Source: a virus
Taxonomy: Duplodnaviria > Caudoviricetes
IMG/VR virus record: IMGVR_UViG_3300042478_001888
Location: 1,910-65,909 of that record
Reading direction: 5' to 3' (one strand)
Length of the DNA: 64,000 nucleotides
A program made the translations under genes and the position numbers. How positions within the stretch are numbered: position 1 is the first letter of the stretch; each line of letters begins with the position of its first letter. The notes beneath the pieces are model-generated. The model made no database searches. It was not told the origin of the DNA and saw nothing but the letters and a program-made list of their open reading frames with translations. Below, piece after piece: positions 26,702 through 42,099 of the stretch.

Positions 26702-29700
26702 ATGGCAAATATATTACCGGTACAGCATAATATTAAGGGTACGCTAGATTTAGATAGTGAGTATGGTGACGTGCGTTCCGGGAATTATGTCGGCGCCGAA
26801 AATGTACAATTCATTAGCAAGGAAGGGAATGAAAGTATTCCCAAGCAACCTTTCATAGGAAACAAGTTCTTATTTGACAAGGGTAGAGTAGAGGTACAGA
26901 ACAAGCGGTTCCGGTTATACTTAGCCCTTGGTGATACGTTTGACTTTCAGGTGTTCGGAACGAATAATGTAACGCAACTTTCTTCTTTGTTTGTTGTTCC
27001 TTCCAACGCATCTTATGCTGCGTATAGGAGTGCTATTCAAGGCTTTTTAACGAGCGCTGGCCTAACTTCTAACATAACAATAGGTATAGACTACTTAGAC
27101 ATAGAAATAACGTCTGTGGCAACGTATGACTATCAGTTTCGTGTTTCTAATGCGAGTGCTGGTGTGAGGGTTATTATTACCCAAGAGAGCATTGCCAACA
27201 ACTTCACTGGCTTTTTGAAAGACATTGGGAGTTACGATTTGAATGGCGATTTGTTTATTTTCTCTACCCCTCAGGAAGAGTTGCCTGAAGAGGTTACTGT
27301 TTCGGGGGTGAATAGTGCTGGTGTTGTAACTACAATTGTTCCTCATGGTTTATCTGCCGGGGACGAGGTTCGTTTGGCGGGTAGCGGGGCGAATGATGGT
27401 ATTTTGTTGGTGAATGTGGTGTTGAGTGCTACTACTTTCTCGTATCACTACCCTGCCGGTGTTGCTGGTGTGGGAGGTATTATCACAAAGAATTATACGG
27501 GAGTGGGGGAGATTGGAGTTGCCCAATTTGACGAGCAGGCCGAAACGGGAACTTACACTAGATTACTAAGGAGTAAAGAGTTTGGCTTTAACACGCTACA
27601 CCAGATAGACTGCGATGGGGAGATTAACCCTTTAGGAAAATCGTTATATTTCAATCAGTACAAGTACAATCCCCCTAGGGTATTTTACTACTTAGGAAAC
27701 TATGTTTTGAATGGAGCTTTGACTTATGTGAATAGCGAGAATCGGTATGAGTATGGTACTATTGACTTGGAAACGAGGACGATATTAAACATTCAAACTG
27801 CAAAGTTAGATTTGGTAAGTGTTACTGAGGGTGGCAATGTAAAGGCTGGGAACAAACAATATTTTATTAGGTTTCTAACTTCTGAAGATGCGTTGTCTGG
27901 AACTGATTATCATGCGTTTACTGGTAATGTAAATATCTACAAGGGCTCTGATACTAGCGACCCGAATAAGATTGCAGGTAATGTTTCCGGAACGCTCACT
28001 ACCAAGAAGGTTACGTTGAGGGTTGAGAACGCTCAGCCGGAGTTGTTTGGGTATGTTGAGTTATGTGTTGCTGAGTGGTTTGGTGATGCGGTAACGTTTT
28101 CGACTGTCCGAAGGGAGGAGTTTGACGAAAGTACATTTGAGATTGAGCATAATGGTTTTGAGGTTGCCACTCCGCTTTCTACCGAGGAGGTGTTGCGGTT
28201 AAACTCATTGATTAAAAACATTGGCGGCCAGCGTATTGTGGACAATCGGTTAGTGATGCATGACATTACTTACGAAGAGCGCAAGGATTTTAGGGCTTGG
28301 GCCGAAAAGATTAACCACACAATTATCAAGGAAGAAATTACTGGTAATGGATTTGTTGAAAATAAAGTGTATGGTGGTTATCAAAACCCTCAGAACACGT
28401 TTAGGTTTGTTGGGTATAAGTGGTTTGAAACGTACAGGTTTGGTATTAGGTTGTATTTGAAGGAGGGTGGAGTTACCGAAACCTTTTGGATTGATGATAT
28501 TAAGTTTGATATTACTCCCACTAATGTAACCACGCCGAATAGAAGAGTTGGCACACCTCCCCCTAACTACGAGTTAAACGTACAAGCATTAGACGACAAC
28601 TTCTTTGTTCCGGGGGTAGAGTTTAGTAATATAGACCTAGAGTATTTGATTAACGGGGATAGGATTAAAGATGTTGTCAGCAAGATTGAGTTTATGAGGG
28701 TGGAGTTGAAAGACGACACTAAAGAGGTTTTGTTAAATGGCATGGGTATCCTGAGTTTTTATGGAATATATGAAGAGGGTTCGCATCGTTTTGGGAACTT
28801 AAACGCTACATTTAGCCAAGCTAACCCTACATATCAAGCAAGGTATCCATTCCCGTTTTTTTCTGGGCAGAACATATTTACCGTAGATGTTGGTGGTGTT
28901 CCAACTGCTCCATTTAATACAAATGGTTATAGGAACATGATTAACACTGAGGCTGCTGGTGGGCTGAAAAGGGGTATCGTTGATACATTTGGTTTATTCA
29001 TAATTTCAAATGATGTTGTTTTTGGAAAGACTGAAATAGAGCGTGCGCCTGGAGACCAGATAATAAACTTTGGGAGGCCTATGTCTGAGCCTGCCTATCC
29101 TATAAACGGCATATCTGGGAAGAATTTTATCCGAGATTTTAGGCTGTTGAATATGGGTGTTGATGGTTTGCCCGCTCCATATTTCCATGATATTGAAGAT
29201 GCAAAGATTTTGCCTAGGGATTCAAATGTTATTATGGATAGGAATGGGGTTAGCCCTGGGCCGACTTTATATGTTTCTAATGCAAAGTCTGACCAAAACA
29301 CTGGTGCTTCTTTTGATAGCTTTGAAAGGACTTATGTTTTTGAATCTAGCATAGCTATATCTTTGGTTAATTCGCTTACCTCCCCATTGCCTTCCCCAGC
29401 ACTTCCATTGTCTTTTACAAATAGCAATGAAGGTGTTTATTGGGTAAGCTATTACAGGCCGAAAGTTTACACTACTCCAGACGATTCAAAGTTTGGAGCT
29501 AGAGATAAAACGGTTTATATATCTACTGGGATAAGCAATTTAATAAATCAAAACTCCTCTGCAACAATAAGTTCCAAGGTTTTTGGGGGGGATACGTTTA
29601 TTGGTAGAATGCAGTTGAAGTTGTGGAACCACTTGACTGAAACTCAGGGGCCTGATTATATTGACGAAACTTATGCTATGTCATTTGTTTCTCAAAGTAC

Positions 29701-31162
29701 GGTAAGCCCCGAAATGCGTATTGATACAGGCCAAGTTGCCCCAGCTTCTTTCCCCGCCACTCCTACTAACGATTACAAGGCTTGGCTAACTAACTTAACG
29801 TTAGATTCTACGGAATATGATAATAGTTACAACTTCCATGCAATAGGTAATTCTTTTGGGTTTAGCACGAATAGAACTTTCATTGACAAGTTCCCCTCTC
29901 GCGTGATATGGAGTGATTTGAAGCCTGATGGTAGTTTCTTTGATTCATACAGGTTTTTCCCTCCCGGCCAGTTCAATGACTATTCAAGGAATTATGGGCC
30001 GGTGGTACACATAGAAACTCTTGATGATGAGTTTTTTGTAATGCAGCACAGGAATTTCAGCAGGGAGTATTTCAACACTACTGGCACGATAACCTCTGAC
30101 ACCGATGAGTTGGTGATATTGGGTAATGCTGGTGTTCTTGCTCGCAAGGGTGCTACGATTACCTCTTATGGTTCGCTTCACAAGTGGTCTTGCGTTAAGG
30201 GGCGTAGTGCTTCTGGCCGAGATGTGTTGTATTGGTTCAATGCTGAGAATGGTTTATTCTTAAAGTATGGCGGAAGGGGTGCAGAGCCATTAAGTATGGC
30301 GAAGGGGTTAAACCAGTGGTTCAATGAGAACAGCAAATTTGTTTACAGCCACAACACTCCGGCAGCAGGCAGGGGGATATGTGGTGGTTGGAACGAGCGT
30401 TTCCAAGAGTTGCGTTATACCTTTAGGGGTTACAAGAATAGCCCTGAGTGGGGTGTAGGTAATACTTACGATAAGGGTGATGTGGTTATTTATGGCGGTA
30501 ATGGGTTTGTTCCTGTGCAGTTGTATTTGTCTAGGGTTGACCATATTAGTTCTCCTGCGAACATTCCTGGGGGAAACACTGTAACGTGGGAGGCTATTTC
30601 CGAAAAAGATTCACGTTATTACAATGTATTTACATTGGTGTATAATGAAATGAAAGATGGCTTTACGAGTTTCCTATCTCCGAAGCCGTTGATATATCAT
30701 CGTTGGAGGAATAATTTATTGACACAGCGTTATGGTGAGTGGAGTCAGTATCCAAATTACTTAGAGAATTTCGGTGATTACAACACGTGGTATTCTTCTG
30801 AGGAGGGGGAGTTGGCCGAAGATGGTTTTGTCATTCCGGTTATCAATTACAATAGCGATGTGATTAAGAAGTTTTCGGCGTTGTATGTTGATAGTGAGGT
30901 TGCTCCTGACAGGGTTGAGTTTTTCACTCCTGAGCATGAGAGTTTTTTGGTGTTGAGTGATTTTGAGAGTAGGGAAGGTATGTGGGTAAGCACTATTAAA
31001 AACGATATTTTAACCGCGCCGAATGGCATAAACGATGGGGATACAAGTCGCTTATTTGGTAGGTACTTACTGGTCAAGGTTTTCTTTTCTCCCAAAAAAT
31101 TCCAATCTTTGCGTAACATAAGAGTGCGCTTACAATTTAATTCACGATATTTACAAACATAG
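26702..31162 (+). CDS. tail stabilisation/muzzle protein (P22 gp10-like)
   Basis: 1486 aa; GTLDLD..NYVGAENV start, YRFGI, SRVIWS, SRLFGRY end, like crAss-like muzzle proteins. Confidence 0.75.
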   Translation: MANILPVQHNIKGTLDLDSEYGDVRSGNYVGAENVQFISKEGNESIPKQPFIGNKFLFDKGRVEVQNKRFRLYLALGDTFDFQVFGTNNVTQLSSLFVVPSNASYAAYRSAIQGFLTSAGLTSNITIGIDYLDIEITSVATYDYQFRVSNASAGVRVIITQESIANNFTGFLKDIGSYDLNGDLFIFSTPQEELPEEVTVSGVNSAGVVTTIVPHGLSAGDEVRLAGSGANDGILLVNVVLSATTFSYHYPAGVAGVGGIITKNYTGVGEIGVAQFDEQAETGTYTRLLRSKEFGFNTLHQIDCDGEINPLGKSLYFNQYKYNPPRVFYYLGNYVLNGALTYVNSENRYEYGTIDLETRTILNIQTAKLDLVSVTEGGNVKAGNKQYFIRFLTSEDALSGTDYHAFTGNVNIYKGSDTSDPNKIAGNVSGTLTTKKVTLRVENAQPELFGYVELCVAEWFGDAVTFSTVRREEFDESTFEIEHNGFEVATPLSTEEVLRLNSLIKNIGGQRIVDNRLVMHDITYEERKDFRAWAEKINHTIIKEEITGNGFVENKVYGGYQNPQNTFRFVGYKWFETYRFGIRLYLKEGGVTETFWIDDIKFDITPTNVTTPNRRVGTPPPNYELNVQALDDNFFVPGVEFSNIDLEYLINGDRIKDVVSKIEFMRVELKDDTKEVLLNGMGILSFYGIYEEGSHRFGNLNATFSQANPTYQARYPFPFFSGQNIFTVDVGGVPTAPFNTNGYRNMINTEAAGGLKRGIVDTFGLFIISNDVVFGKTEIERAPGDQIINFGRPMSEPAYPINGISGKNFIRDFRLLNMGVDGLPAPYFHDIEDAKILPRDSNVIMDRNGVSPGPTLYVSNAKSDQNTGASFDSFERTYVFESSIAISLVNSLTSPLPSPALPLSFTNSNEGVYWVSYYRPKVYTTPDDSKFGARDKTVYISTGISNLINQNSSATISSKVFGGDTFIGRMQLKLWNHLTETQGPDYIDETYAMSFVSQSTVSPEMRIDTGQVAPASFPATPTNDYKAWLTNLTLDSTEYDNSYNFHAIGNSFGFSTNRTFIDKFPSRVIWSDLKPDGSFFDSYRFFPPGQFNDYSRNYGPVVHIETLDDEFFVMQHRNFSREYFNTTGTITSDTDELVILGNAGVLARKGATITSYGSLHKWSCVKGRSASGRDVLYWFNAENGLFLKYGGRGAEPLSMAKGLNQWFNENSKFVYSHNTPAAGRGICGGWNERFQELRYTFRGYKNSPEWGVGNTYDKGDVVIYGGNGFVPVQLYLSRVDHISSPANIPGGNTVTWEAISEKDSRYYNVFTLVYNEMKDGFTSFLSPKPLIYHRWRNNLLTQRYGEWSQYPNYLENFGDYNTWYSSEEGELAEDGFVIPVINYNSDVIKKFSALYVDSEVAPDRVEFFTPEHESFLVLSDFESREGMWVSTIKNDILTAPNGINDGDTSRLFGRYLLVKVFFSPKKFQSLRNIRVRLQFNSRYLQT

Positions 31163-31166
31163 TATT

Positions 31167-31787
31167 ATGCCAGCACCATTAGCAATAGGTTCATTAGTTT
31201 TAGGTGGTATCCAGACCATAGGTGGTTTGGCTGCTGCGCTTTCGATGGGTAGGCGCCCAAGGTTTCAGGAAGACCCAAGGTTTACCGGAGCGGCAGGTCG
31301 CGCCGAATACATGGCTGGAATGGGGTATATGCCTCAGGAGCGTGCCGCGTTTCAAGGCGATATAGCTTCTCAGACCGCTGGGGATTATCGTAGGGGGATT
31401 GATATGTCTGGTGGCAATATGGCGAGAGCGTTGGGGGGTATAAGCACTGCGAGAACGTTAGGGGCGTACAATCGTTTTGCCGCTCAGGATGCTGCTTTGC
31501 GTAGGCAGAATATTCAGTATGCCGACCAGTTTTCTCGTGAGCGTCAGCGTAGGGCGGATATGCAAACGCAGGCGGATATGGCACAGTATGACAGGGAGCA
31601 ACAGGCAACAGGGCAGGCTATTAGTTCGGGTTTGACCGGTATGGCTGGTGCGGCGAACTTTAGCCAAGCGATGAATTTTTATGGCAAGCAGGGTATGACT
31701 GGTGGTGTTCAGGGAGCAGGCAAGTATCCTAAGGACAACTATTTAAACCAGTATGGGTTTTTTGACCCGATAAAATTACCCATATAA
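31167..31787 (+). CDS. ejection/internal virion protein 1
   Basis: N-terminal Gly/Ala zipper, Q/A-rich coiled coil; follows muzzle. Confidence 0.6.
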   Translation: MPAPLAIGSLVLGGIQTIGGLAAALSMGRRPRFQEDPRFTGAAGRAEYMAGMGYMPQERAAFQGDIASQTAGDYRRGIDMSGGNMARALGGISTARTLGAYNRFAAQDAALRRQNIQYADQFSRERQRRADMQTQADMAQYDREQQATGQAISSGLTGMAGAANFSQAMNFYGKQGMTGGVQGAGKYPKDNYLNQYGFFDPIKLPI

Positions 31788-31813
31788 TAAAACGCGCCGA
31801 AAAGCAATAATCA

Positions 31814-33436
31814 ATGACACCACTAGTAGCAGGTATAGCATTAACAGGAAAAGCCCCAGTGTACGAAAACGTATATATGGCAGGGCTTAAACAAAAGGCA
31901 GCTGGTGAGGCGGCGGCGGCGAAGGAAAAAAACAAGCAGTTAGAAGACATAAGAGCTGCTATAACGATTCCAAAGGGAGGTGTTCATAACTCCCTCGTTA
32001 ATGAGGTTAAGGATTTGGCTGCTGAGACTTTCTTAAATGCCACTAAAGCTGTTGAGTCAGACCCAACAAGGGGGATAAATAAGGCTATGGAAATGATTCT
32101 TGAATTTCAGTCTAAATTGAATGTGTATCAAAACACAAGCAAAGCGCTAGAAAAAATTGAAACGCCTGAATACAGTAAGAATTATTTTAGTTCTCCGCAA
32201 TTTGTTCAGGGTATTGGAACAAAGAATTTCAAAGAGGTAGAAAGCGACCAAGCGATTGTCGAAAATGCTAGAAAAGCGGGTATAAATATTCAAAGGGCAA
32301 ATGGTCTTCCTGTTGTTTCTACAATAGACTATCCAAGGTTTGACCCTGCTAAGCCTTTTATTGATTGGCAAAAAGCCACTGTTGCTAAATATGAAGCAGA
32401 GGTTGGAGACCCTACAAAATTAGGTAAGAGTTTGCGTCAAGAGATATTAAAGCGGGTTAATGAGCAAGAGGCAATGGCATATTTAGAAGGTAGTGCCGCA
32501 GATGATAACGAGGTAGCCGCTTGGCAGAATAAACATAACATCGACATAACAACTTCTGAAGGAAGGAAAGCGGCTGCGCAGAGATTTTTGTACACGCAAG
32601 AAAAGGCTCAAACTTCTGGGCCTGGATTTAATATTAATCTTGGCCCTGGAAGCCAAACAACAACCTCTCCGGTTGTTTCTGAAACTTCTCTAACTGCTAA
32701 CACTAGTTTTAACTGGAGTCCATCATCAAGGTCTGATAACTCTGGCGAGTACTACGTTTTACAATTTGCGGAAGGGTTTGGCAACAAGAATCTTGTCGCT
32801 GGTGATGGAAGGGGAAATCCATTAAAGTTTAAAAGCAGTAAAGAGGCAGAAGAATATCTTGTCAATAATAGCAAGTTTGATTATGAAGCTATTAAAACTT
32901 TAAACTTAGACGTTCCTTCTGTTGGCATTACAATTCCTGCTGGTGAGAAGTCCTTTACTATTGGTGAGGAGGGTTCTAATACTGGTTATGGTGAAAAGGT
33001 TGAGTCTAATACTTTCAATATGAAAGTTAATAGGTTGGAAACTGTGGAAACTTATACTGGTGATAAGATTTTGACTGTGGGTTTATTTAGAATGGAAAAG
33101 GGGGACATTATACCTAAAGAAGTATCAAAATACGTTCCTTCTGATAAAACAGAAAAAAGGGTTTTTGTTGTTGGGGAGGTAGAAACTTCATATAAAACAA
33201 ATGTAGGGGCAAGAGATAAGGGTGGTACTGTGTATGTCCCTGCTACTAAGCAAAACATAAGCGCCATTATTTCAAAGCTTCCTTCAACAGAAAAGGAAAC
33301 AAGACGGATGCTTGAAGAAATTAATACTGGCAAGCAAAAGCTTGGTGATGGTAAGATACTTGGCGCAGCAACGAAGGGCGCCGAAAGGCAACCTAAGAGT
33401 GGTTTTAGTTTGTTAGAATTTGATAATATAGCATAA
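31814..33436 (+). CDS. ejection/internal virion protein 2 (putative)
   Basis: 540 aa, located between ejection protein 1 and the giant protein. Confidence 0.5.
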   Translation: MTPLVAGIALTGKAPVYENVYMAGLKQKAAGEAAAAKEKNKQLEDIRAAITIPKGGVHNSLVNEVKDLAAETFLNATKAVESDPTRGINKAMEMILEFQSKLNVYQNTSKALEKIETPEYSKNYFSSPQFVQGIGTKNFKEVESDQAIVENARKAGINIQRANGLPVVSTIDYPRFDPAKPFIDWQKATVAKYEAEVGDPTKLGKSLRQEILKRVNEQEAMAYLEGSAADDNEVAAWQNKHNIDITTSEGRKAAAQRFLYTQEKAQTSGPGFNINLGPGSQTTTSPVVSETSLTANTSFNWSPSSRSDNSGEYYVLQFAEGFGNKNLVAGDGRGNPLKFKSSKEAEEYLVNNSKFDYEAIKTLNLDVPSVGITIPAGEKSFTIGEEGSNTGYGEKVESNTFNMKVNRLETVETYTGDKILTVGLFRMEKGDIIPKEVSKYVPSDKTEKRVFVVGEVETSYKTNVGARDKGGTVYVPATKQNISAIISKLPSTEKETRRMLEEINTGKQKLGDGKILGAATKGAERQPKSGFSLLEFDNIA

Positions 33437-36400
33437 TGAGTAAAGAGATACTAAAAGGCATATTTGAGGAGAACATAGCTCCTGTGCGTGAAGACATAAC
33501 CTTTGAGGGTTGGGTAGATAAGATTAGGGATAACGAGGAGTACAAGGTGGGTTTATTTGAGAACTACGTCCAGCCGAGTATGCCTGAGGCCACATTTGAG
33601 GAGTTTAATTCTAATGCGTTTGGAAGCCTGGGAAAGGTGGAGGCCCCACTTGCTGGGGCGCAATCCGAAGAAAGTTTTTCCCCTACCGAATCCGTATCGA
33701 GCGAATTTGAGGTAGGGCCACCTGCTGGGGGAACGCCTCCCGGTGTTGAGCCTAAGGGTGAGCCGGTTGCTGAGGCTGCTGCGTTGGTTGGGGATGTTGG
33801 CTCAGAGGGTGAGCCTACGATTATTGGGCAGGAGTTAGATCCTTACACGATTGTTGAGAAGGACGATAGGAATTTCTTTGAGCGTCTTTTTGGCGAGGAT
33901 CGTTATCGCAGGGTAACGGAGCGTGCGGTGGAAACGATACCGGCTTTGACTAGGTTATTTGGCAAGGCTGCTGCGAAGGATGTTCAGAAAGAGGTAAATG
34001 ATTTAGGTAGGGCTATGGAGGCTGACCCTGAGTTTGTGATTAAGGCTTCGCAGAATGGTCTTTTCACTACGAACAATTTAGCCACGTATTTAAGCCAGGA
34101 GGCTGCCGGGGATAAGAAGGGCGCCGAAGAGATAAATATGTTTTTAGAAAAGGGTGCAACGGGCAAGACTACTCAGTTTGAAAGGTTCAAGACGCTATAT
34201 GCTCCAATCGAAAAAGAGCGCAACGAGGCTATACAAAAAGAGTTATTATCCAACAGAGATTATGTAGCGTTAAGGGGAAAGATAGATGCTGAGTTTAATA
34301 GTCAGCGAGTAGGTGTTGATGAGAAGTATGATTTTAAGGCTTTGATGGGTGAGGAGTTTAAGGTTGGCGAGAAGGAATTATTGGGCAAGTACGAATCTGC
34401 CACGCTTGCTTTACCTATGCAATTAGAAACCAAGGCGAGTGAGTTGAAGTTTGACTATCAGACCAAGGTGAATAATGGGCAGATGGGTGTTAACGAAGCC
34501 AATGAAGGCTTAAAGCGTGATTTAGATGCTTATGGTGCGGAGTTGCAGAAGCAGAGTGATGAGGCGTTGGGGGAGTATAATTCCGGCGTTAGCGCCTTGG
34601 CCGAAAGGGTACAAAAGGGTGTTAAGGATAAGCCAGAGTTCAAGGCTTACATGGACGAGTTGAACGACTTGCGTAATGGGGTTGTTGAGAGTTTTTCTGG
34701 CGATTACCAAAAGATTCAGCAGGCGGTGTTCAACAATATTGCCCCTAAGTACAACTCTAAGATTGAGAGTGCTATAACGAATAGCATGAAGGGTGAAACT
34801 CCTTTGCTTAACAAGTCTGGGGTAAAGGGTGATATTGACAAGATTTTGGGAAATAGGGGTTGGGATTACTTACCTTTCGACCAGAAGAAGGCTGCGTTGG
34901 ATACTATGTTTGGCACTGCCTTATCTAAGTTGAAGCGTAGCGGTGTTGAGATAAACGATGGTGTTGTTGCTGGGTTGCGTGCTGAGTTTGACGATGCGTT
35001 TATGGATAGGGCGTATTTTACCAAGAAGGGTACTCCTTCTTTGTTTATGGTAAAGACGCGTGCTATTGAGGAGGCTGAACGTCTTGACGAGATGCTTAAA
35101 GAGCGTGAGGCAAAGACTGGCACTAAGACGTACACTTCTGGGATATATGGTTCGGAGTTTGGCGTTGGCGGTATGGGTTATGATGATACTGACGTTCAGG
35201 AGTTGCGTTTGGCGAGGGAAAAGTTACAGGAGATAATTGAGATGCCTGAAACGATGTCGGATAATGAGTGGTCGAATTTTTGGAATGGATTAACTTCGGG
35301 GAAGGTTGTTGATTATTTACCATTTGTTTCTGGGTTAAAGAATTTGAGTGGCACGTTGGCGTTGTATCGTGCTGTGGGTAAGGACACTGAATCTGCCCGA
35401 TATTTGAAGAACGCCGAAGCGTTAAATTCCACATACAAAAATATGTATGAGGTAAACAACATGGCTTCGGATTGGTATAGGGCTGGTAGGGGTACTGCCG
35501 AGAGTTTGCCTTTTATGATGGAGTTTGCTGCCACCGCAGGGATAGGTAGTGGCGTAAGGATAGCAACTGAAAAGGTTGCTGTAAAGTTGCTTGGCAAACA
35601 GGCAGAAACGATGGTTGGCAAGTCGTTTAAGGTTCTTGCTGGAACGCTTGTTAGTTCGTTAGCGCAAACCACGTTAAACCCTCAGCGTTATGTAGATGAA
35701 ACGTTGAAGCGTATGACGCCCCAGATGACTATTGCGTTTTCTCCTGAGGGTGATGATTTGGTTGCCATGTTAGACAGCAGTGATGCTGAGGGTGGCTTTG
35801 AGGCTGCGTTAAAAGGTTTTGGTGTAACCGCTTCCGAGTATTTCTCTGAGGGGTTAGGTTTTGCGGGAGCGAGGGCAATGAAAGCGTTGGGGAGTAAGAT
35901 GTTGCAGAACGAGTTTTTGAAGAAGGCGTATGTGGGTTGGTATATGAGCAAGTTCAATTTAGATACACCTACTGCGTTTAAGAAGATTGCGGAGATGGGT
36001 GGTTGGAATGGATTTTTGATGGAGTTTGGCGAAGAGCTTGTAAACATACCGTTGACCAATTTGATTACTGGTGATGCGAAGGTAATGGAGGGCATCATTA
36101 AGGACGGGGAGTTTGATACTGAGAACTTGGCCGATATTGCTCGCACCTTATTACCTATTAGCCTTGCTGGTGGTTCAGTTAGTTTGGGTGGTTTAGCTAT
36201 CAACAAAATAGCCCCTGAGGGTGTTACGGTAACGTATAGGGACATTAACAACCTGCCTACTACCGAAACCATTAACAAGGGTGTTTGGGATGCTGTAACT
36301 GAGGTTATGAAGTCTCCTTCCAAGGTGCGTGATTTTATTGCGAATGAGTTACCTAAGTTAAAGGTAGATGGTAAGGGTAGGGAGTTAGTAACTTCTATGT

Positions 36401-39400
36401 TAGAGCGTTCTGCTATTGAGTTTGATAGGGGTGTTGTTGGTGCTGGTACACGTCAGGTTGCTGAGGCTACTTCTCCTTTGGAGGTAACTTTCGAGCCTAT
36501 TCCCGAAACGGGGGGAGCGCCGAAGGTTGAAATCGTTGCCAAGCGTAGGCAGAAGTTAAATAGTGACAGGACTAAGTTAGTACCTACTGGTGGTTTTGAT
36601 TATTTCGCAAAGGTAGGGGATAGGGAGGTTAAGTTAAGTGATGCTGAGTATAAGGCATATAAGGAAAGCGGTGTGTTGCCTGAGAGTGTTTCGGCGGTTG
36701 AGGCTACTCCGAAAGTTGAGGGGGAAGTTGTGCCTGCGGCTACCGAAGAGGTGGTTGCGGAGGCGGTAACCCCTGAGGTTACCCAAGCGCCCGAAGTCGC
36801 CGAAGGGCAACCTGCCGAGGTTATTTCCCCAGAGGTAGCGGAAGTGTTATCAACCGAGGACACCACACGTATTGCGTTAGAATCGCTAGAGGTGTTACCT
36901 GAGGGCATAGAGAGTGCCGAGGAAGGTGCGCGTATCTACCACGAAGCGATAGGCAAGGAGGAGCGTACTGAGGCTGAGGACGCTGTTGTTATGGCGGTGG
37001 AGGATGCGGTTATTGGTGGTGCGGTTGTGCCTGAGGTGGAAACTCCCGAAGCGGTAGAAACCGCCGAAGCAGTTACCCCCGAAGAGGTATCTACCGAGGG
37101 TGTTACCCCAGAGGTTTCCGGGGTGGTGGAAGCCGCCGAAGGGCAAAGGCAGCCAAGTCGTGTAGCCACCTTTTTCTCTGGTGCAGGCACAATGGAAGCG
37201 TCTTTACCCAACGCCCAATCTGTTATGGCTGTTGAGTTCAACCCAGCGTACGTTGAAGCGTACAACAAAGCCTTTGGTGTTGAGTATGAAGCCAAAGATG
37301 TTAGGGATATTAACCCTGAGGAAGTGATAGCTTCTAAGCCGGACATATTCCATGCTTCTCCTGTTTGCAAGAACTTTTCGGCGGCCAAGAATAAACGAAC
37401 AGTTTTGAAGTCAGATATGGAATCGGCTGATGCTGTTGCGAGGGTTATTCGTGAGGCACAACCACCGATTGTAACGATAGAAAATGTTCCTGACTACCAA
37501 GGCACTGTCCCATTTGAAACAATAGTAAAGGCCTTAGAAGATGCAGGCTACACCTTTGATGTTGGAGTTTACAACTCTGCGGATTTCGGTGGTGTTCAAA
37601 ATAGGGAGCGTCTGTTAATTCGTGCTGTGAAGAGTGGCGAACTGCCACCTATCCAAGAGAAAACTGCTCCTGGGGATTGGTATTCTGCAATAGAGGATTT
37701 GATTGAAAGTGCCCCAGACTCAAAGTTTGAATCTAGGAGTGAGAGTGAGAATTGGGAGATGGCTAGGATTAAGGATATGGTGCGTAAGGGTAAGTTAGAT
37801 GCAACCAAGCCAATCATTACTATGGGTGGTTCTGCTTCTAGCGGTGTGGCTGCTGCTGCCAATGCTGGCGGCCCTGCGCCTACGTTATTAAGCACTTCGC
37901 GTTCTGTTCCAAGGATTATTTTGCCTGATGGCACAGTTAAGAGGGTAACTCCTGAGATGATGCGTAGGCTTATGGGATTGCCTGAGAGTTATCCTATACC
38001 TTCCAACCCAAAGATTGCGAAGGAAGTTTTGGGGAATGGCGTTGATGGAGCGTTTACTAGGGCGTTGATTGACCCGTTGTTGAATCGCGCCGAAACGCAA
38101 CCCAGCGCCGAAACGCAACCCAGCGCCGAAGGATTAACTTCTAAGGAGAAAGCAGAACAATACAAAAAGGAAGCCGAAGAGATAGCCAAGGAGATACGTA
38201 GAAAGCTAAAAATCAGGAGCGGAATTAAAGGCAATATAGGAATAAGTCCCTTCTCTCGCGCCAAGCGTTTGGCTGAGTTAGAAAAAGATATTCTTTATGA
38301 TGTTAAGGACTACATTTACAAAAGGGTTGCTCAGGCAATTCAACTATCTAAGGTTTACACCTTCAAGGATTTCGTGGAGGATATGAAGGAGAATAGTAAG
38401 CGGCTTTTTGGGGTGCAGATTGAGGTTGCTGATTCTGATAAATCAATATTCCATTCAGCGCGGTCTCGTTTTGAGATAAACGATGCTTTTGCTCAGGAGA
38501 TATTGGATTTGAAAGATGATTTTCTCTTTTCTATTGCCGCTATGTCTGGCCGAATGAATATGAATTTTCAGGAGTTTATATCTTCAAATAGTGCATTGGT
38601 TAACGGATTTGTGAATCGCGCCGAAAGCATTTACGGTTTAGACGATCAAGCTATGATGTTAGTGCAAGAGATGTACCAAGACGCGTTACGTGCTGCTGCC
38701 AACCGCGCCGAATCGTACACTACTCTAGAAGATGTAAAGAAGTTCCACGAAACCAAGGAAGAGTTGTTAGGCTTAGAGAGGGACATGGAAAGGGCGCGTA
38801 TCAACGAAGAGATAAAGCGTAGGCGTAACTGGTTGAGCAGAAACTTTGACAAGTTCCAGCGTGCGTTTATTACTCCTGTGAAAAACTTTAATCGTGCGTT
38901 TGGGTATAGGGCTGGTAAGTTTTCCGATTACAGAACTTCGCAAGAGCGTGATGTATATTCTGCACGTAAGTATCGTATGGGTGCTTCCACCAAGGCAGGC
39001 AATTGGTACAATGCTATCCACAACAAGATTTATGGTGGGTTGTCTTGGTTTGAGAAGGTAGAGTTAGACAAGTATTTGATTTATCGTAGGATTGTAGAGG
39101 TTTCTGAGGTACGCAATCAAAGGGCGGCGGAACATAAGAAGCTCGAAAATGAGTTGGCGGCTGGCGTTACTCCGGTAAGAAAGCAAGAGATTAAGGAGGC
39201 TATGGCGGAGCTTGAAAAGGCGGGCATGGGTGAGGTTAAGAGTGGTTCGATTATGGTTGATGGTAAGAAGGAGAAATACACTGTTGCGCTTGCTGAGGCG
39301 TTTGTGAATGACATAAACGCTCGTAATGATGCTTTGGCAATCAAAATTAGGAATCGCGCCGAAATGTACACTGAGGCTAACAATGAGTTGTTAAAAATGC

Positions 39401-42099
39401 GTTTAGATTCAGGCGAAATATCTCAGGAGGCTTACGATTCAATGCAGAAGCGTGATTATGTTCGTAGGTTGTTTGTTGACCTTTCAAACACAACCTTAGA
39501 TGAAGCAAATTATTCCCCTGTATCTAAAGAAATAAAAGCTATCAAGGAAGGTAGTGAGGACGCAATATTGGAAATGGATACTCAGGCTTTGTTGCAGATT
39601 AACGCTCAAATAACTTTCGATAGTGTTGCTAAAAACAACTTCATTAAAAAGGTTGTTGGTTGGTCGGAAGCTAAGCAGCAGGATTATTTAGACAAGGCGC
39701 TTGAAAAGTTCAAGGACGCTCGTGCTAGAACGGAGAGGTATCTTCGTTCTAGTCCTAGGCCATTAACCCAAGACGAGATAGACAGATTCATAAAGGAGCA
39801 GACGTTATTTATTCCTTTGAGTAATGATGCGAAGGTTCCTAGTGGGTTTACTGCGCAGAAGTATTTTGTAGATGGTGTTGAGAAGAGGGTTGCTGTTCGT
39901 AATGATATTGCAAACATATTTCAAACGCCAAGCGGAAGGGGTATTAACGAGAACAGTTTTGCTATTAAGGCTATATCTGCGCTTCTTTTAACTCCGGTTA
40001 TTAAGGCTTCGGCGGTATTTGTAAACCCAGCGTTTGCGATAGGTAACTTTGCCCTTGACGTAATTCATGCGTCAATGGTTACTAGGGATTTGTATAAGTC
40101 GTTTACTTTTAACCTTGGTACTATTTTGGCAAAGGCTACGGGATATACTGCGGAGAACATATATCGCAAGGCGGTGAAGTATGGTGCTTCCCTTTTTGGT
40201 AGAACTGCCAGGGATTCAAAGTTCGAGCGTCTTGTAAAGGATTACTTTGAGCATGGTGGAGGTATGTCTGGCCTTTCCAATCCTTCGTCAAGAATGTATA
40301 GTGATAAGCTGTCTAGTAGTGCTTTGCGTAGGAGTTTTGGTGATGCTATGGATGGTATTATTGCTGTGTTGGACGTAATAAATTCTTTGCAATCGGGTTC
40401 GGAGCTTATTACTAGGGTTATTGTTTATGAGGCTGCATTGGATAAAAACATAGCGGCGTATAGGGAGAAGAATGGTGTTGACCCAGTTGGGGAGGATTTA
40501 GCGTTAATGAAGATGTCTGCGGCGGCGAGTTCTGCTGATTTGATTGATTTCAGGGAAGGCGCCGAAGCAACAAAAGCGCTCGACCAAACCCTTCTGCCTT
40601 TCTTAAACGCTATGATTCAAGGTGCTAAGGCAGAGATTGATTTTGCATCCAAGAATCCTTTACTTGCTGCTGCAAGATTGGCAGAGTTTGGAGGTATGGC
40701 ACTTGGGGCTGCTCTGTACAATGCTAATTCCGGAGATGAAGATGAAAAAGAGGGTATCGTTGGCTACAATGGTATTACCGATTACATAAAGTCGAACTAC
40801 TTTGTAATGATGATGCCTTGGACTAAGAAGAATGAGCGTGGGGAGATTGTCCGTCCGTTCATATCAATTAAGTTGCCTGCTGCGTTAAAGGCTACGAACA
40901 TTTTGGTTAGCGGTATGGTTGCCGACCAAGGGGCGGAGAATACTATTGGCCAAATGGCAAGTGCGTTAGAAGGTGGTTATGTTCCTGAGATTGGTTCTGT
41001 ATCTCCTACCGCCCAGATTTTTATGGCTTTGAATGACAATAGGGATGCGTTTAGGAAGGGCGCTCCGGTGTATCGTGGTAGGGCAGACGTGTTATTAACT
41101 GAGCGTTTCAACGCAGGGGAAACGAAGGCTATTTATCGTGATTTGTTTGGTGCTATGTATGATTTAATCAATGAGGATGGCGAGAATGAGGGTGTTTTAG
41201 GTTTTGATGAGGCGGGGCCGGCGCAATGGCAAGCGGCTTTCGAGAAGGCAATATCTTCAAACAATCCATACTACCTTGGCATTACGTCCACCTACGCGAC
41301 CATATCTTCGCTATACGGCAAGGATAATAAGAAAGAGGTAGATGCGCTTATGGACGAGAAGTTTGCTGCCTTAAATGCGTTTGGGAGCAGAGTATATCGC
41401 GAGCCGAATAGTAATGTTCAGCAGAAGAATATGAAGGATAGGAAACAGGTTGATTTCCTTCGCGACCAGATAGGTTCTTGGCAAAAAAAGAACGATGATG
41501 CTATTGAGTTTGCTGCCAAGACGATACGGGATATTAACAAGTTAGAGGGTAACTCGAAGAATGTTAAAATAGATTTATTCTTTGACAGGGAGGTGTTTAA
41601 TTATATTTCTGATGCTCAAATGATTAAGGGGATAAAGGATCAAGGCATAAAAGATATTCCTGAGAACTTAGATGACCTTAATAAAGTTATCAATAAAGAG
41701 CAAACTCGTTTGTCGTTGAGACTTTTAGAAGAGTTTAAACCAAACTTTGTTTTCAAGCATCCGGCGTTAAAGAGTTATGCGCAGAGTGAGGATTCTTATG
41801 TTGGTTTAAACGCCGAAATGATTAACAAAATTGCTAAAGAGTATGACAGTTCTAGGAATAGGAGGTCATATCTTATTGCGTTGAAGTTTGTTGCTGGTGA
41901 TGATTTTAAGAATATCGTTCAACAAATTGGGGCGCACGAAAGGGACTTGTCTGTTGTAGAAGGTATTACAGAAACTACGAGTGCAACTAAGTACAAGCGA
42001 CTTTATCTTCGTCCTGATAATAGAAGCTCAAAGCCAATATCCTCCGAGTCTGCAATAAACAATTTGATACTGCTAAAATATTTATTGACAAATGAGTAA
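33436..42099 (+). CDS. giant internal virion/ejection protein with embedded C5-cytosine methyltransferase and LPD38-like C-terminal region
   Basis: 2887 aa; FFSGAG, HASPVC, ENV, QNRER, TPEMMRRLMGLP and LGNGV at about 37150-38085; late NYFVMM..IKLP..NRDAF..P motifs. Confidence 0.8.
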   Translation: MSKEILKGIFEENIAPVREDITFEGWVDKIRDNEEYKVGLFENYVQPSMPEATFEEFNSNAFGSLGKVEAPLAGAQSEESFSPTESVSSEFEVGPPAGGTPPGVEPKGEPVAEAAALVGDVGSEGEPTIIGQELDPYTIVEKDDRNFFERLFGEDRYRRVTERAVETIPALTRLFGKAAAKDVQKEVNDLGRAMEADPEFVIKASQNGLFTTNNLATYLSQEAAGDKKGAEEINMFLEKGATGKTTQFERFKTLYAPIEKERNEAIQKELLSNRDYVALRGKIDAEFNSQRVGVDEKYDFKALMGEEFKVGEKELLGKYESATLALPMQLETKASELKFDYQTKVNNGQMGVNEANEGLKRDLDAYGAELQKQSDEALGEYNSGVSALAERVQKGVKDKPEFKAYMDELNDLRNGVVESFSGDYQKIQQAVFNNIAPKYNSKIESAITNSMKGETPLLNKSGVKGDIDKILGNRGWDYLPFDQKKAALDTMFGTALSKLKRSGVEINDGVVAGLRAEFDDAFMDRAYFTKKGTPSLFMVKTRAIEEAERLDEMLKEREAKTGTKTYTSGIYGSEFGVGGMGYDDTDVQELRLAREKLQEIIEMPETMSDNEWSNFWNGLTSGKVVDYLPFVSGLKNLSGTLALYRAVGKDTESARYLKNAEALNSTYKNMYEVNNMASDWYRAGRGTAESLPFMMEFAATAGIGSGVRIATEKVAVKLLGKQAETMVGKSFKVLAGTLVSSLAQTTLNPQRYVDETLKRMTPQMTIAFSPEGDDLVAMLDSSDAEGGFEAALKGFGVTASEYFSEGLGFAGARAMKALGSKMLQNEFLKKAYVGWYMSKFNLDTPTAFKKIAEMGGWNGFLMEFGEELVNIPLTNLITGDAKVMEGIIKDGEFDTENLADIARTLLPISLAGGSVSLGGLAINKIAPEGVTVTYRDINNLPTTETINKGVWDAVTEVMKSPSKVRDFIANELPKLKVDGKGRELVTSMLERSAIEFDRGVVGAGTRQVAEATSPLEVTFEPIPETGGAPKVEIVAKRRQKLNSDRTKLVPTGGFDYFAKVGDREVKLSDAEYKAYKESGVLPESVSAVEATPKVEGEVVPAATEEVVAEAVTPEVTQAPEVAEGQPAEVISPEVAEVLSTEDTTRIALESLEVLPEGIESAEEGARIYHEAIGKEERTEAEDAVVMAVEDAVIGGAVVPEVETPEAVETAEAVTPEEVSTEGVTPEVSGVVEAAEGQRQPSRVATFFSGAGTMEASLPNAQSVMAVEFNPAYVEAYNKAFGVEYEAKDVRDINPEEVIASKPDIFHASPVCKNFSAAKNKRTVLKSDMESADAVARVIREAQPPIVTIENVPDYQGTVPFETIVKALEDAGYTFDVGVYNSADFGGVQNRERLLIRAVKSGELPPIQEKTAPGDWYSAIEDLIESAPDSKFESRSESENWEMARIKDMVRKGKLDATKPIITMGGSASSGVAAAANAGGPAPTLLSTSRSVPRIILPDGTVKRVTPEMMRRLMGLPESYPIPSNPKIAKEVLGNGVDGAFTRALIDPLLNRAETQPSAETQPSAEGLTSKEKAEQYKKEAEEIAKEIRRKLKIRSGIKGNIGISPFSRAKRLAELEKDILYDVKDYIYKRVAQAIQLSKVYTFKDFVEDMKENSKRLFGVQIEVADSDKSIFHSARSRFEINDAFAQEILDLKDDFLFSIAAMSGRMNMNFQEFISSNSALVNGFVNRAESIYGLDDQAMMLVQEMYQDALRAAANRAESYTTLEDVKKFHETKEELLGLERDMERARINEEIKRRRNWLSRNFDKFQRAFITPVKNFNRAFGYRAGKFSDYRTSQERDVYSARKYRMGASTKAGNWYNAIHNKIYGGLSWFEKVELDKYLIYRRIVEVSEVRNQRAAEHKKLENELAAGVTPVRKQEIKEAMAELEKAGMGEVKSGSIMVDGKKEKYTVALAEAFVNDINARNDALAIKIRNRAEMYTEANNELLKMRLDSGEISQEAYDSMQKRDYVRRLFVDLSNTTLDEANYSPVSKEIKAIKEGSEDAILEMDTQALLQINAQITFDSVAKNNFIKKVVGWSEAKQQDYLDKALEKFKDARARTERYLRSSPRPLTQDEIDRFIKEQTLFIPLSNDAKVPSGFTAQKYFVDGVEKRVAVRNDIANIFQTPSGRGINENSFAIKAISALLLTPVIKASAVFVNPAFAIGNFALDVIHASMVTRDLYKSFTFNLGTILAKATGYTAENIYRKAVKYGASLFGRTARDSKFERLVKDYFEHGGGMSGLSNPSSRMYSDKLSSSALRRSFGDAMDGIIAVLDVINSLQSGSELITRVIVYEAALDKNIAAYREKNGVDPVGEDLALMKMSAAASSADLIDFREGAEATKALDQTLLPFLNAMIQGAKAEIDFASKNPLLAAARLAEFGGMALGAALYNANSGDEDEKEGIVGYNGITDYIKSNYFVMMMPWTKKNERGEIVRPFISIKLPAALKATNILVSGMVADQGAENTIGQMASALEGGYVPEIGSVSPTAQIFMALNDNRDAFRKGAPVYRGRADVLLTERFNAGETKAIYRDLFGAMYDLINEDGENEGVLGFDEAGPAQWQAAFEKAISSNNPYYLGITSTYATISSLYGKDNKKEVDALMDEKFAALNAFGSRVYREPNSNVQQKNMKDRKQVDFLRDQIGSWQKKNDDAIEFAAKTIRDINKLEGNSKNVKIDLFFDREVFNYISDAQMIKGIKDQGIKDIPENLDDLNKVINKEQTRLSLRLLEEFKPNFVFKHPALKSYAQSEDSYVGLNAEMINKIAKEYDSSRNRRSYLIALKFVAGDDFKNIVQQIGAHERDLSVVEGITETTSATKYKRLYLRPDNRSSKPISSESAINNLILLKYLLTNE

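What the first reader, a model, noticed from the sequence alone, without database searches (positions are those of the whole stretch)
37130..38132. C5-cytosine methyltransferase domain embedded in the giant ejected virion protein
Seen: inside the 2887-aa protein, about 310 aa carry the ordered Dcm motifs FFSGAG (I), VEFN (II), HASPVC (IV, catalytic Cys kept but VC rather than PC), ENV (VI), QNRER (VIII), R.TPEMMRRLMG (IX) and LGNGV (X). The domain follows an acidic AEAVTPEV linker and precedes AETQPS repeats. Established: giant proteins after the muzzle gene are typically co-ejected; crAss-like phages eject an RNA polymerase, and P1 DarB is a virion-delivered protein with an MTase domain. Inference: the phage may methylate its genome on entry as an anti-restriction measure. 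No RNAP motif was recognised. GCCGAAGG flanks the domain on both sides (about 37135 and 38124), consistent with insertion at the genome-wide motif.
Basis: partly seen in the sequence, partly recalled or inferred. Interest (0 to 1): 0.78.

Follow-up and report, generated by a model that had tools for sequence, protein, structure and literature searches.

The report
Swappable cytosine methylase in phage giant protein
A freshwater phage carries a complete, well-conserved DNA cytosine methyltransferase as an exchangeable in-frame module of the giant protein encoded after its tail genes, which fits a known anti-restriction design with an enzyme type I found described for it in no searched paper.

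Summary
Residues 1243-1538 of the 2887-aa ORF (window 33436-42099, +) match Pfam PF00145 (E 1.2e-30). They align end to end with M.HhaI and fold like it (pLDDT 90.4; Foldseek E 3e-16, TM 0.69-0.73).

The unusual motif IV, SPVC, marks a whole subfamily. The module is under purifying selection (dN/dS 0.06-0.12).

The domain is a 954-nt (318-codon) cassette. Two relatives with 98-99% identical C-terminal flanks lack exactly it. DNA empty sites join at a GCCGAA hexamer inside AE[G/T]QPS linker repeats. The cassette is 93-99% identical in giant proteins whose C-terminal backbones are only 53-74% identical.

Relatives carry ART-PolyVal, ParB_N or LPD23 at the same region, so this is a phage-type polyvalent protein (Iyer 2017). 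No RNA polymerase signature was found.

Virion packaging and methylation on entry remain inferences. Methylation of progeny DNA late in the producer cell is a serious rival or complement.

This scan noted analogous methylase cassettes on other DNA (e1-5872553, e1-3416626). Verdict: a new variant of a known kind, of moderate interest.

The parts
33436..42099 (+). Giant ORF of 2887 aa (P0001). Its ATG overlaps the stop of the upstream 540-aa ORF by one base (TAATG).
33436..36651 (+). Conserved N-terminal module, residues 1 to about 1072. No curated Pfam hit; LPD14 only at E 0.015. Its nearest ESM-Atlas clusters are viral, and one carries LPD14 on 66% of members.
36652..37134 (+). Acidic linker region rich in Pro, Glu, Val, Ala and Thr (residues about 1073-1233), interrupted by a 32-aa conserved mini-domain at 36871-36966. 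Relatives carry extra cassettes at about 36711/36782 and at 37037/37039.
37135..37158 (+). Left junction unit AEGQRQPS. It begins with GCCGAAGG.
37141..38094 (+). C5-cytosine methyltransferase cassette: 954 nt, 318 codons, present or absent as a unit. The Pfam PF00145 match covers residues 1243-1538, which is 37162-38049.
37351..37380 (+). Motif IV, HASPVCKNFS, with the catalytic Cys1311. The Ser-Pro-x-Cys is invariant and the Val is nearly invariant in 36 aligned subfamily members.
38089..38132 (+). Right junction: two tandem 18-nt units GCCGAAACGCAACCCAGC (AETQPS twice), then GCCGAAGG (AEG).
38134..42096 (+). Conserved C-terminal module. Its core, residues 1840-2480 (38953-40875), is mostly alpha-helical and is shared by 498 representative clusters, most of the 150 listed being proteins of 1000-4200 aa. 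The nearest ESM-Atlas clusters carry LPD38.
26702..31162 (+). Upstream crAss-type muzzle protein of 1486 aa.
   Evidence: PF25731, E 9.7e-39
31167..33436 (+). Two ORFs (206 aa and 540 aa) between the muzzle gene and the giant gene. No family found. They sit where crAss001 has its small cargo proteins.
53099..54154 (-). Second, stand-alone C5-cytosine methyltransferase of the same phage (351 aa, motif IV SPPC). It is only 25% identical to the cassette.
54993..55724 (-). Stand-alone N6/N4 DNA methyltransferase (PF01555, E 1.9e-39).

Best explanation
The 2887-aa product is a phage-type polyvalent cargo protein. A conserved N-terminal module and a conserved, mostly alpha-helical C-terminal module (LPD38-like neighbourhood) flank a hypervariable middle. 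That middle is built from effector cassettes strung on disordered acidic linkers. In this phage the only enzymatic cassette is a complete M.HhaI-like, SAM-dependent C5-cytosine DNA methyltransferase of an 'SPVC' motif-IV subfamily. SHOWN: the domain's identity, its completeness, its fold and purifying selection on it. SHOWN: it is a 318-codon unit gained or lost between short direct repeats of the linker unit AE[G/T]QPS, with microhomology CGCCGAA. SHOWN: nearly the same cassette sits in giant genes with strongly diverged or unrelated backbones, so it was exchanged laterally and recently. SHOWN: relatives carry ART-PolyVal, ParB_N or LPD23 cassettes in the same region. INFERRED: the protein is translated with the late structural operon, packed into the capsid like the cargo proteins encoded after the muzzle gene of crAss001, and ejected into the next host. 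There the refolded methylase, using host SAM, would supply cytosine methylation from the first minutes of infection, before the late gene can be expressed. The same domain probably already methylates progeny DNA late in the producer cell. Together these would protect the genome against a cytosine-sensitive restriction system. The target sequence is unknown.
For: Domain identity: PF00145 at E 1.2e-30. M.HhaI aligns over residues 1235-1536 against chain residues 6-306 at E 4e-11. The AF2 model has pLDDT 90.4 and pTM 0.88. The top Foldseek PDB hits are M.HhaI entries at E 3e-16 with TM 0.69-0.73. Motifs I, IV, VI, VIII, IX and X are in order.

Motif IV: S-P-x-C is invariant and Val is at least 90% conserved in 36 aligned members, down to 30% identity. 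SPVC was read in 49 of 66 BLAST-matched sequences. The other 17 gave no match to my regex, and some of them are fragments.

Selection: dN/dS is 0.064 against L015 (16 nonsynonymous, 60 synonymous changes), 0.084 against L005 and 0.118 against L013.

Cassette: P0002 (C-terminal flank 99% identical, N-terminal flank 89%) and P0003 (C-terminal 97-98%, N-terminal 98%) lack residues of about 1238-1556. DNA empty sites in L012 and L011 join the left flank to the right flank at GCCGAA.

Lateral exchange: the cassette is 93-99% identical in 13 of the 25 C-module homologues, whose C-modules are 51-98% identical to the query; eleven of the thirteen have C-modules of 51-74%. L015 is 91% identical at the DNA level over 37063-38120 but 72% just downstream. 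P0226-P0230 share the leader, the linkers and the cassette, then continue with a different C-terminal backbone.

Polyvalent character: ART-PolyVal, ParB_N and LPD23 occur in homologues. LPD38 occurs in 5 and LPD23 in 3 of 16 diverse C-core proteins. The Atlas neighbours carry LPD38 and LPD14. [quoted passage not shown]

Virion context: the gene follows the portal gene and a crAss-type muzzle gene. Its start overlaps the upstream stop. In crAss001 the proteins gp45, gp46, gp47, gp49 and gp50, which that paper treats as cargo, were detected in virions by mass spectrometry (PMC10172136, passages). In Cellulophaga phage phi18:3 the giant gene closing the structural block is annotated as a structural protein from MS/MS proteomics.

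Breadth: 1297 proteins of 1587-5053 aa match the cassette at E <= 0.001 among 8000 scored. All 120 listed carry PF00145; 30 also carry ART-PolyVal and 14 LPD38.
Against: No proteomic, structural or expression evidence exists for this protein itself. The MS-proven phi18:3 giant protein is not detectably homologous to the C-core (hhalign probability 10.8%). The two small upstream ORFs do not match the phi18:3 structural proteins.

Two close relatives do without the cassette, so it is accessory. None of 147 further C-core representatives carries it; the positive controls P0013 and P0024 did score.

This protein has no HExxH peptidase motif that could release the domain.

The phage already has two stand-alone methylases and strong palindrome avoidance, so the need for a delivered enzyme is not obvious.

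Because the domain is made late, progeny DNA may be methylated before packaging, which leaves little to do on entry. From my own knowledge, C5 methylases turn over slowly compared with DNA entry and restriction.

The only RNA-library evidence is contigs 90-95% alike from one run, which may be DNA carry-over.
Confidence: 0.55

Rival explanations
1. The domain works only in the producer cell. The variable middle of the giant gene is simply an in-frame landing pad that gives accessory genes late expression. The methylase modifies progeny DNA before packaging, and whether it then rides in the virion is irrelevant, or the protein is not packaged at all.
For: The gene lies in the late structural operon with a coupled start. 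The cassette has the length of a whole stand-alone enzyme: the 313-aa relatives P0038 and P0047 align over nearly their whole lengths. The cassette has no start codon of its own before motif I, so it depends on the host ORF. No packaging evidence exists for this protein.
Against: The companions at the same site in relatives are ART-PolyVal, ParB_N and LPD domains, which define proteins predicted to act after delivery (PMC5512222, passages). The position matches the MS-proven cargo genes of crAss001. The phage already has early-module methylases for ordinary modification.
Confidence: 0.3
2. The delivered methylase targets host DNA or a competing element rather than the phage genome. It might reprogramme host transcription, or mark host DNA to subvert a methylation-dependent system.
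For: Polyvalent proteins combine host-directed effectors (PMC5512222, passages). The ART-PolyVal partners found in relatives are host-protein modifiers by annotation.
Against: Nothing in the sequence points to host targeting. The domain is a plain monomeric type-II-like methylase with no extra targeting domain. A few delivered copies could not modify a whole chromosome quickly (my inference).
Confidence: 0.07
3. The domain is a DNMT2-like RNA (tRNA) methyltransferase, or a C5 hypermodifying enzyme such as a carboxymethyltransferase, and not a DNA methylase.
For: DNMT2 and tRNA-C38 methyltransferases appear among the PDB hits (E 3.8e-5 to 9.5e-4; Foldseek ranks 4, 11 and 16). A DNA cytosine C5-carboxymethyltransferase (8yf3) is at Foldseek rank 25. 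The homologous giant protein of Maribacter phage Panino is annotated 'tRNA methyltransferase'.
Against: M.HhaI scores six or more orders of magnitude better by sequence and aligns over the full length, including the target-recognition part. The Panino protein shows no Pfam family in my scan, so that annotation has no support here. 8yf3 matches only residues 1334-1400 by sequence, at E 0.47.
Confidence: 0.04
4. The domain is catalytically dead and serves as a structural or DNA-binding spacer.
For: Motif IV reads PVC rather than the textbook PC preceded by Pro, and Gln after the Cys is replaced by Lys.
Against: SPVC is conserved across the subfamily, including apparently stand-alone enzymes. All other catalytic motifs are intact. 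dN/dS is 0.06-0.12.
Confidence: 0.03

Closest known systems
Phage-type polyvalent proteins (Iyer, Burroughs, Anand, de Souza, Aravind 2017, J Bacteriol; PMC5512222)
   Same: A giant multidomain protein encoded among virion genes. Disparate effector domains sit in one polypeptide. LPD-type domains (LPD38, LPD23, LPD14 neighbourhood) and ART-PolyVal or ParB cassettes occur in relatives. The predicted role is delivery with the DNA to counter restriction.
   Different: The methylase described there is an N6-adenine enzyme in a dyad with an SWI2/SNF2 helicase and LPD36. In that paper's main text the word 'cytosine' occurs only in the reference list (its supplements were not seen). Here the enzyme is a solo C5-cytosine methylase with no helicase, and this protein has no zincin peptidase motif.
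Phage P1 DarB
   Same: A large head-internal protein with a DNA methyltransferase domain that protects incoming DNA in cis against restriction, as summarised in PMC5512222 (passages).
   Different: DarB is an adenine methylase fused to a helicase, and it acts against type I systems. No sequence relationship to this protein was found, and packaging is proven for DarB but not here.
Cargo proteins of crAss001 (gp45, gp46, gp47, gp49, gp50; Bayfield et al. 2023, PMC10172136) and the virion RNA polymerase gp66 of Cellulophaga phage phi14:2
   Same: The gene lies after a crAss-type muzzle gene and two smaller ORFs. The protein is very large and its conserved module is largely alpha-helical.
   Different: No RNA polymerase features were found. 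There was no PDB sequence or profile hit to a phage RNA polymerase, no Foldseek hit at E <= 0.001 and no DxDxD motif. The name and motif of gp66 are recalled from memory, not taken from a call.
M.HhaI and other type II C5-cytosine methyltransferases (PDB 1mht, 2uyc and others)
   Same: The same fold and the same order of motifs I, IV, VI, VIII, IX and X; full-length alignment.
   Different: About 18-20% identity. Motif IV is SPVCK instead of GFPCQ (M.HhaI). The domain is embedded in frame in a 2887-aa protein, and its target is unknown.
Giant proteins of Maribacter phage Panino (CDS0069) and Cellulophaga phage phi46:3 (gp121; Pachyviridae)
   Same: The C-terminal core is homologous: 23% identity over about 620-675 residues at E 1e-18 by tblastn and E 3e-26 by BLASTP. 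The genes sit in the same place, at the end of the structural block of podoviruses of Flavobacteriia.
   Different: Neither has a methylase or any other Pfam domain. The N-terminal parts are unrelated at the BLAST level.

Membership tests
C5-cytosine DNA methyltransferase (PF00145) | Profile match above the curated cut-off | tested here: met
   107.5 bits against a cut-off of 22, E 1.2e-30, profile positions 3-312 of 324
C5-cytosine DNA methyltransferase (PF00145) | Ordered motifs: I (FxGxG), IV (catalytic Cys), VI (ENV), VIII (QxRxR), IX and X (GN) | tested here: met
   FFSGAG, SPVC (Cys1311), IENV, QNRER, RVTPEMMRRLMG and LGNGV occur in that order. They align to the same motifs of M.HhaI. 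The residue before the Cys is Val, not Pro, and this is conserved in the subfamily. The motif names are recalled from memory.
C5-cytosine DNA methyltransferase (PF00145) | Two-lobed fold: a Rossmann-type catalytic domain plus a target-recognition domain | tested here: met
   AF2 pLDDT 90.4. Foldseek top hits are M.HhaI entries at E 3e-16, TM 0.69-0.73.
C5-cytosine DNA methyltransferase (PF00145) | SAM-dependent transfer of a methyl group to C5 of cytosine in DNA | not testable with these tools
   Only indirect support: dN/dS of 0.06-0.12.
Phage-type polyvalent protein (Iyer 2017) | A large protein that combines unrelated effector domains with LPD domains | tested here: met
   This protein has one enzymatic domain, and LPD14 only at E 0.015. 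Its homologues carry ART-PolyVal, ParB_N, LPD23 and LPD38. Atlas neighbours carry LPD38 and LPD14.
Phage-type polyvalent protein (Iyer 2017) | Encoded among late or virion genes | tested here: met
   Portal, muzzle and a virion structural PHROG lie upstream on the same strand.
Phage-type polyvalent protein (Iyer 2017) | Zincin-like metallopeptidase for processing (common, not universal) | tested here: not met
   P0001 has no HExxH. A HEMAH-bearing module is present in P0006, P0007 and P0019 and in the giant ORFs of L012 and L013.
Phage-type polyvalent protein (Iyer 2017) | Packaged in the virion and delivered with the DNA | not testable with these tools
   Positional analogy only.
crAss-like virion RNA polymerase (phi14:2 gp66 type) | Double-psi beta-barrel domains with an Asp-rich metal-binding motif (features recalled from memory) | tested here: not met
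   No PDB sequence or profile hit to an RNA polymerase. The C-core model is mostly helical and has no Foldseek hit at E <= 0.001. There is no DxDxD motif. The N-module and the last 400 residues were not folded.
DarB-like adenine methylase-SNF2 dyad | N6A methylase fused to an SF2 helicase and LPD36 | tested here: not met
   Pfam finds no N6 methylase or helicase in P0001. A separate SNF2 gene and a separate N6/N4 methylase gene lie elsewhere, on the minus strand.

The most novel reading that the evidence does not exclude
The short linker units (AE[G/T]QPS, each starting GCCGAA) may be dedicated in-frame recombination sockets. They may be related to the genome-wide, strand-biased 8-mer GCCGAAGG, which also lies within about 20 bases of two other block boundaries (about 36501 and 36782). 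Such sockets would let a community of diverged lake phages trade ready-to-use effector cassettes without breaking the reading frame. In this reading the methylase, tethered by about 170 residues of disordered linker to an ejection scaffold, would modify the genome as it threads into the cell.
Probability: 0.15. Interest if true: 0.8.

Novelty: new variant of a known kind. Interest (0 to 1): 0.5.

Why it matters
The best-studied delivered anti-restriction methylase, P1 DarB, is an adenine enzyme with a helicase. The polyvalent-protein survey (PMC5512222), as far as its main text goes, describes only that type.

This case shows that a plain C5-cytosine methylase is also used as a module of giant phage proteins, and widely. 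1297 proteins of 1587-5053 aa matched the cassette in one capped search.

It also gives an unusually clean natural experiment. Phage genomes with 98-99% identical C-terminal flanks exist with and without the cassette, the junctions are resolved to the base, and the cassette is much younger than the backbones that hold it.

That makes two questions directly testable. Do virion-borne methylases act before, or only after, the first round of gene expression? How do in-frame effector cassettes move between phages?

Tried and rejected
RNA polymerase reading. The whole protein against PDB sequences gave only methyltransferases. A 30-sequence profile of the C-core gave nothing below E 0.37. The C-core model (pLDDT 72.6) had no Foldseek PDB hit at E <= 0.001. 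There is no DxDxD or HExxH motif. I did not run the wide VIA-align search, and I did not fold the N-module or the last 400 residues.

Link to MS-proven virion proteins of Cellulophaga phage phi18:3. The giant gp123 is not detectably homologous to the C-core (hhalign probability 10.8%). gp120 and gp121 do not match the 206-aa and 540-aa ORFs. Only the positional analogy remains.

Transmembrane segments. Only three weak hydrophobic peaks were found (Kyte-Doolittle 1.55-1.67), so I make no claim of a membrane channel.

Promoters and terminators around or inside the gene. The counts do not differ from shuffles.

Reads. In three lake-water DNA runs the contigs cross the cassette without differences, and no joint skips it. 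Contigs drop rare variants, so this says nothing about a minority empty form. The RNA-library run X19 holds contigs 90-95% alike over 36968-37979, which may be DNA and come from a relative. I do not count this as expression.

Target specificity. Palindrome statistics give only a lead: CCGG and GCGC are not avoided.

Junction tag. The Gly-Gly-x-LPKAQ tag noted by an earlier scan report is absent from P0001.

Literature. Searches for 'polyvalent protein' with 'cytosine methyltransferase' gave 0 papers. crAss-like + virion RNA polymerase + methyltransferase, cytosine methyltransferase + virion + injected + anti-restriction and Crassvirales + cargo terms gave nothing relevant. Supplementary files of PMC5512222, which hold its domain tables, could not be seen and might list a C5 methylase.
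Full report
WHAT IS THERE

The window is nearly the whole of a 65.9-kb virus record rated 93% complete. The plus strand carries a structural block. It holds a P22-like portal (12308-14542) and a crAss-type muzzle protein (26702-31162; PF25731, E 9.7e-39). Two ORFs of 206 and 540 aa follow, and then a 2887-aa ORF at 33436-42099. The start codon of the giant ORF overlaps the stop of the preceding ORF by one base (TAATG).

Residues 1243-1538 match Pfam PF00145 at E 1.2e-30, with 107.5 bits against a cut-off of 22. PHROG methyltransferase families match as well. Its start coordinate is merely off the codon phase, which explains the stops.

IS IT A REAL, WORKING-LOOKING METHYLASE?

The domain aligns to M.HhaI from chain residue 6 to 306, at E 4e-11. 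An AlphaFold2 model built on 36 subfamily sequences has pLDDT 90.4 and pTM 0.88. Its best Foldseek matches in the PDB are M.HhaI structures, at E 3e-16 and TM 0.69-0.73.

The one oddity is motif IV, which reads S-P-V-C-K where M.HhaI reads F-P-C-Q. This is a subfamily trait and not decay. In the 36-sequence alignment Ser, Pro and Cys are invariant and Val is kept in at least 90% of members, down to 30% identity. SPVC was read in 49 of 66 matched proteins; the other 17 gave no match to my regex, and some are fragments.

Codon comparisons with three related loci give dN/dS of 0.064 (16 nonsynonymous against 60 synonymous changes), 0.084 and 0.118. Activity itself cannot be tested here.

IT IS A CASSETTE

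A search with the C-terminal 1288 residues found 25 homologous giant proteins. Thirteen carry the methylase and twelve do not.

Two of the twelve, P0002 and P0003, are 98-99% identical to the query over the C-terminal module and 89% and 98% identical over the N-terminal 1237 residues. They lack precisely residues of about 1238-1556. They read ...GVVEA-AEGQPS-AEGLTSKEK. This phage reads ...GVVEA-AEGQRQPS-[methylase]-AETQPS-AETQPS-AEGLTSKEK.

At the DNA level, empty sites in two more distant loci (L012, L011) join ...GAAGCC|GCCGAA|ACGCAACCCAGC.... The extra segment is therefore 954 nt, or 318 codons, lying between the GCCGAA at 37135 and the GCCGAA at 38089. The shared microhomology is 7 bases, CGCCGAA.

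The left edge is a GCCGAAGG copy. The right edge is the first of two tandem 18-nt units that precede the GCCGAAGG at 38125.

The cassette has about the length of whole stand-alone relatives: P0038 and P0047 are 313 aa and 46-48% identical. It has no start codon of its own before motif I.

IT MOVES

The cassette is 93-99% identical in all thirteen carriers, whose C-modules are 51-98% identical to the query. In eleven of the thirteen the C-module is only 51-74% identical.

L015 is 91% identical in DNA across 37063-38120 but 72% identical just downstream. Synonymous divergence of the cassette is 0.02-0.35.

Proteins P0226-P0230 share the 150-residue leader, the linkers, the cassette and about 100 residues after it. 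They then continue with a different C-terminal backbone.

A capped search with the cassette alone against proteins of 1587-5053 aa returned 1297 matches at E <= 0.001 among 8000 scored. All 120 listed carry PF00145; 30 also carry ART-PolyVal and 14 carry LPD38. Of the 107 that were new, 96 share with this protein only the cassette and at most about 140 flanking residues.

Conversely, none of 147 further representatives of the C-core family carries the cassette; the positive controls scored. So the methylase and the backbone are independent building blocks.

WHAT THE GIANT PROTEIN IS

The middle of the protein (residues about 1073-1243) is 70-85% Glu, Pro, Val, Ala and Thr. In relatives it is the place where other modules sit between similar linkers. 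Those modules include ART-PolyVal (E 3e-12 to 4e-22), ParB_N, LPD23, and a module of about 700 residues with a HEMAH zincin motif.

The C-terminal core (residues 1840-2480) occurs in 498 representative clusters at E <= 0.001, and in 228 at E <= 1e-10. Most of the 150 listed are proteins of 1000-4200 aa with the core near the C-terminus. Among 16 diverse members, 5 carry LPD38 and 3 carry LPD23. The nearest ESM-Atlas clusters are viral and carry LPD38 on 61-93% of members.

These are the signature domains of the 'polyvalent proteins' of Iyer et al. 2017, who list LPD38 as phage-specific and predict delivery with the DNA (PMC5512222, passages read).

The protein is not recognisably an RNA polymerase. 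There were no PDB sequence or profile hits. The core model is mostly helical and has no fold match at E <= 0.001. There is no DxDxD motif.

The only cultured relatives of the core are giant proteins of Maribacter phage Panino and Cellulophaga phage phi46:3 (Pachyviridae). Both are podoviruses of Flavobacteriia. Runs holding this DNA are lake-water metagenomes. A freshwater Bacteroidota host is therefore plausible but not shown.

HOW IT MOST LIKELY WORKS

Shown: an intact C5 methylase module sits, tethered by long disordered linkers, inside a late-operon giant protein of the polyvalent type.

Inferred: the protein is packed and ejected like the crAss001 cargo proteins gp45, gp46, gp47, gp49 and gp50. 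Those were found in virions by mass spectrometry and are thought to pass the tail partly unfolded and then refold (PMC10172136, passages).

One logical point weakens the simple 'methylate on entry' story. A late-expressed methylase can already modify progeny DNA before packaging. What delivery would add is activity in the early phase of the next infection, before late genes are on, when new unmethylated strands appear.

I therefore put the delivered anti-restriction reading at 0.55 and a producer-cell-only role at 0.30. Host-directed methylation, an RNA target or hypermodification, and an inactive spacer are minor rivals.

The phage also encodes a stand-alone Dcm that is 25% identical to the cassette, and an N6/N4 methylase. 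It avoids many palindromes. The cassette is thus one layer of several, and it is dispensable in close relatives.

POPULATION EVIDENCE

In three lake-water DNA runs dated 2020, 2023 and 2024, which may include the source of the window, contigs cross the cassette without or with very few differences at depth of about 50. Contigs break at 36501-36546, 36682-36711 and 36782-36846. Loose ends of lower depth (9-17) there read into other variants. One has the ending ...AVEELLGKP of the extra cassette seen in P0004. No joint skipping the methylase was seen, which for contigs is not evidence of absence.

COMPARISON AND NOVELTY

The design is known: virion-associated polyvalent proteins, with P1 DarB as the methylase archetype. 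Three things are different here.
- The enzyme class is a solo C5-cytosine methylase, not an adenine methylase-helicase dyad.
- The cassette can be shown, base by base, to be a repeat-flanked plug-in unit.
- There is evidence of its recent spread across unrelated backbones.

I found no paper describing this. In the main text of PMC5512222 'cytosine' occurs only in the reference list, and a search for 'polyvalent protein' with 'cytosine methyltransferase' gave 0 papers. Three further searches gave nothing relevant. The supplements of PMC5512222 could not be seen.

This scan has noted analogous cases on other DNA (look-alike e1-5872553). Those are unchecked AI notes and not independent support.

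Verdict: a new variant of a known kind; interest 0.5.

Noticed in passing
window, 18 sites: 145(-), 1278, 3968, 9954, 20040(-), 36519, 36799, 37135, 38125, 42325, 42379, 48844, 49281, 50513(-), 50600(-), 52438, 54577, 57152: The 8-mer GCCGAAGG occurs 18 times against 1.25 expected, 14 on the plus strand and 4 on the minus. About six copies lie between ORFs of 120 aa or more. Nine copies share the extended form GC/CC-GCCGAAGG, often followed by G. Inside the giant gene three copies lie within about 20 bases of block boundaries seen against relatives (about 36501, 36782, 37135). Its function is unknown; a recombination or regulatory signal is possible.
   Followed up: partly
whole window: Strong palindrome avoidance. 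GATC has an observed/expected ratio of 0.11. CATATG, GTATAC, CGGCCG and CCATGG are absent, and GATATC is at 0.04. CCGG (1.05) and GCGC (0.82) are not avoided, which makes them candidate targets of the two C5 methylases.
   Followed up: no
window 53099-58359 (-): A cluster on the minus strand holds a stand-alone C5 methylase (53099-54154), a protein with a BT4734-like N-terminal domain (54151-54996), an N6/N4 methylase (54993-55724) and an SNF2-family helicase (56764-58359). Counting the cassette, the phage has three DNA methylases.
   Followed up: partly
window 8657-9310 (+): A serine recombinase (Resolvase N-terminal domain, E 4.9e-25). This suggests possible integration or an invertible segment.
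   Followed up: no
L012:889-10671 and L013:464-9751 (giant ORFs of relatives): Relatives string up to four modules between the same linkers. One is a ParB_N-like module, one is an ART-like module of about 150 aa, and one is a module of about 700 aa ending in a HEMAHIFEHY zincin-type motif directly upstream of the methylase position.
   Followed up: partly
P0226-P0230 (proteins): These five share this protein's first 150 residues or so, its linkers, its methylase cassette and about 100 residues after it. They then continue with a C-terminal backbone that shows no BLAST similarity to this one. Even the 'backbone' is therefore modular.
   Followed up: partly
L001:9256-14745 (Maribacter phage Panino CDS0069): The GenBank product name is 'tRNA methyltransferase', but my Pfam scan found no family at E <= 0.01. 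The name may be an annotation artefact.
   Followed up: partly
window 36501-36846: Contigs of three lake-water runs end at 36501-36546, 36682-36711 and 36782-36846. Minority loose ends there (depth 9-17 against about 50) read into other variants, so variant giant genes coexist in one habitat.
   Followed up: partly
window 37062: A contig 90-95% alike from an RNA-library run carries an extra 18-nt linker unit that starts with GCCGAA (reading AEAPKA). This is another sign that linker units are gained and lost whole.
   Followed up: no
window 24278-25387 (+): A 369-aa protein with an endosialidase-type beta-barrel domain (PF12195, E 1.8e-9). It is probably a tail spike or fibre part.
   Followed up: no
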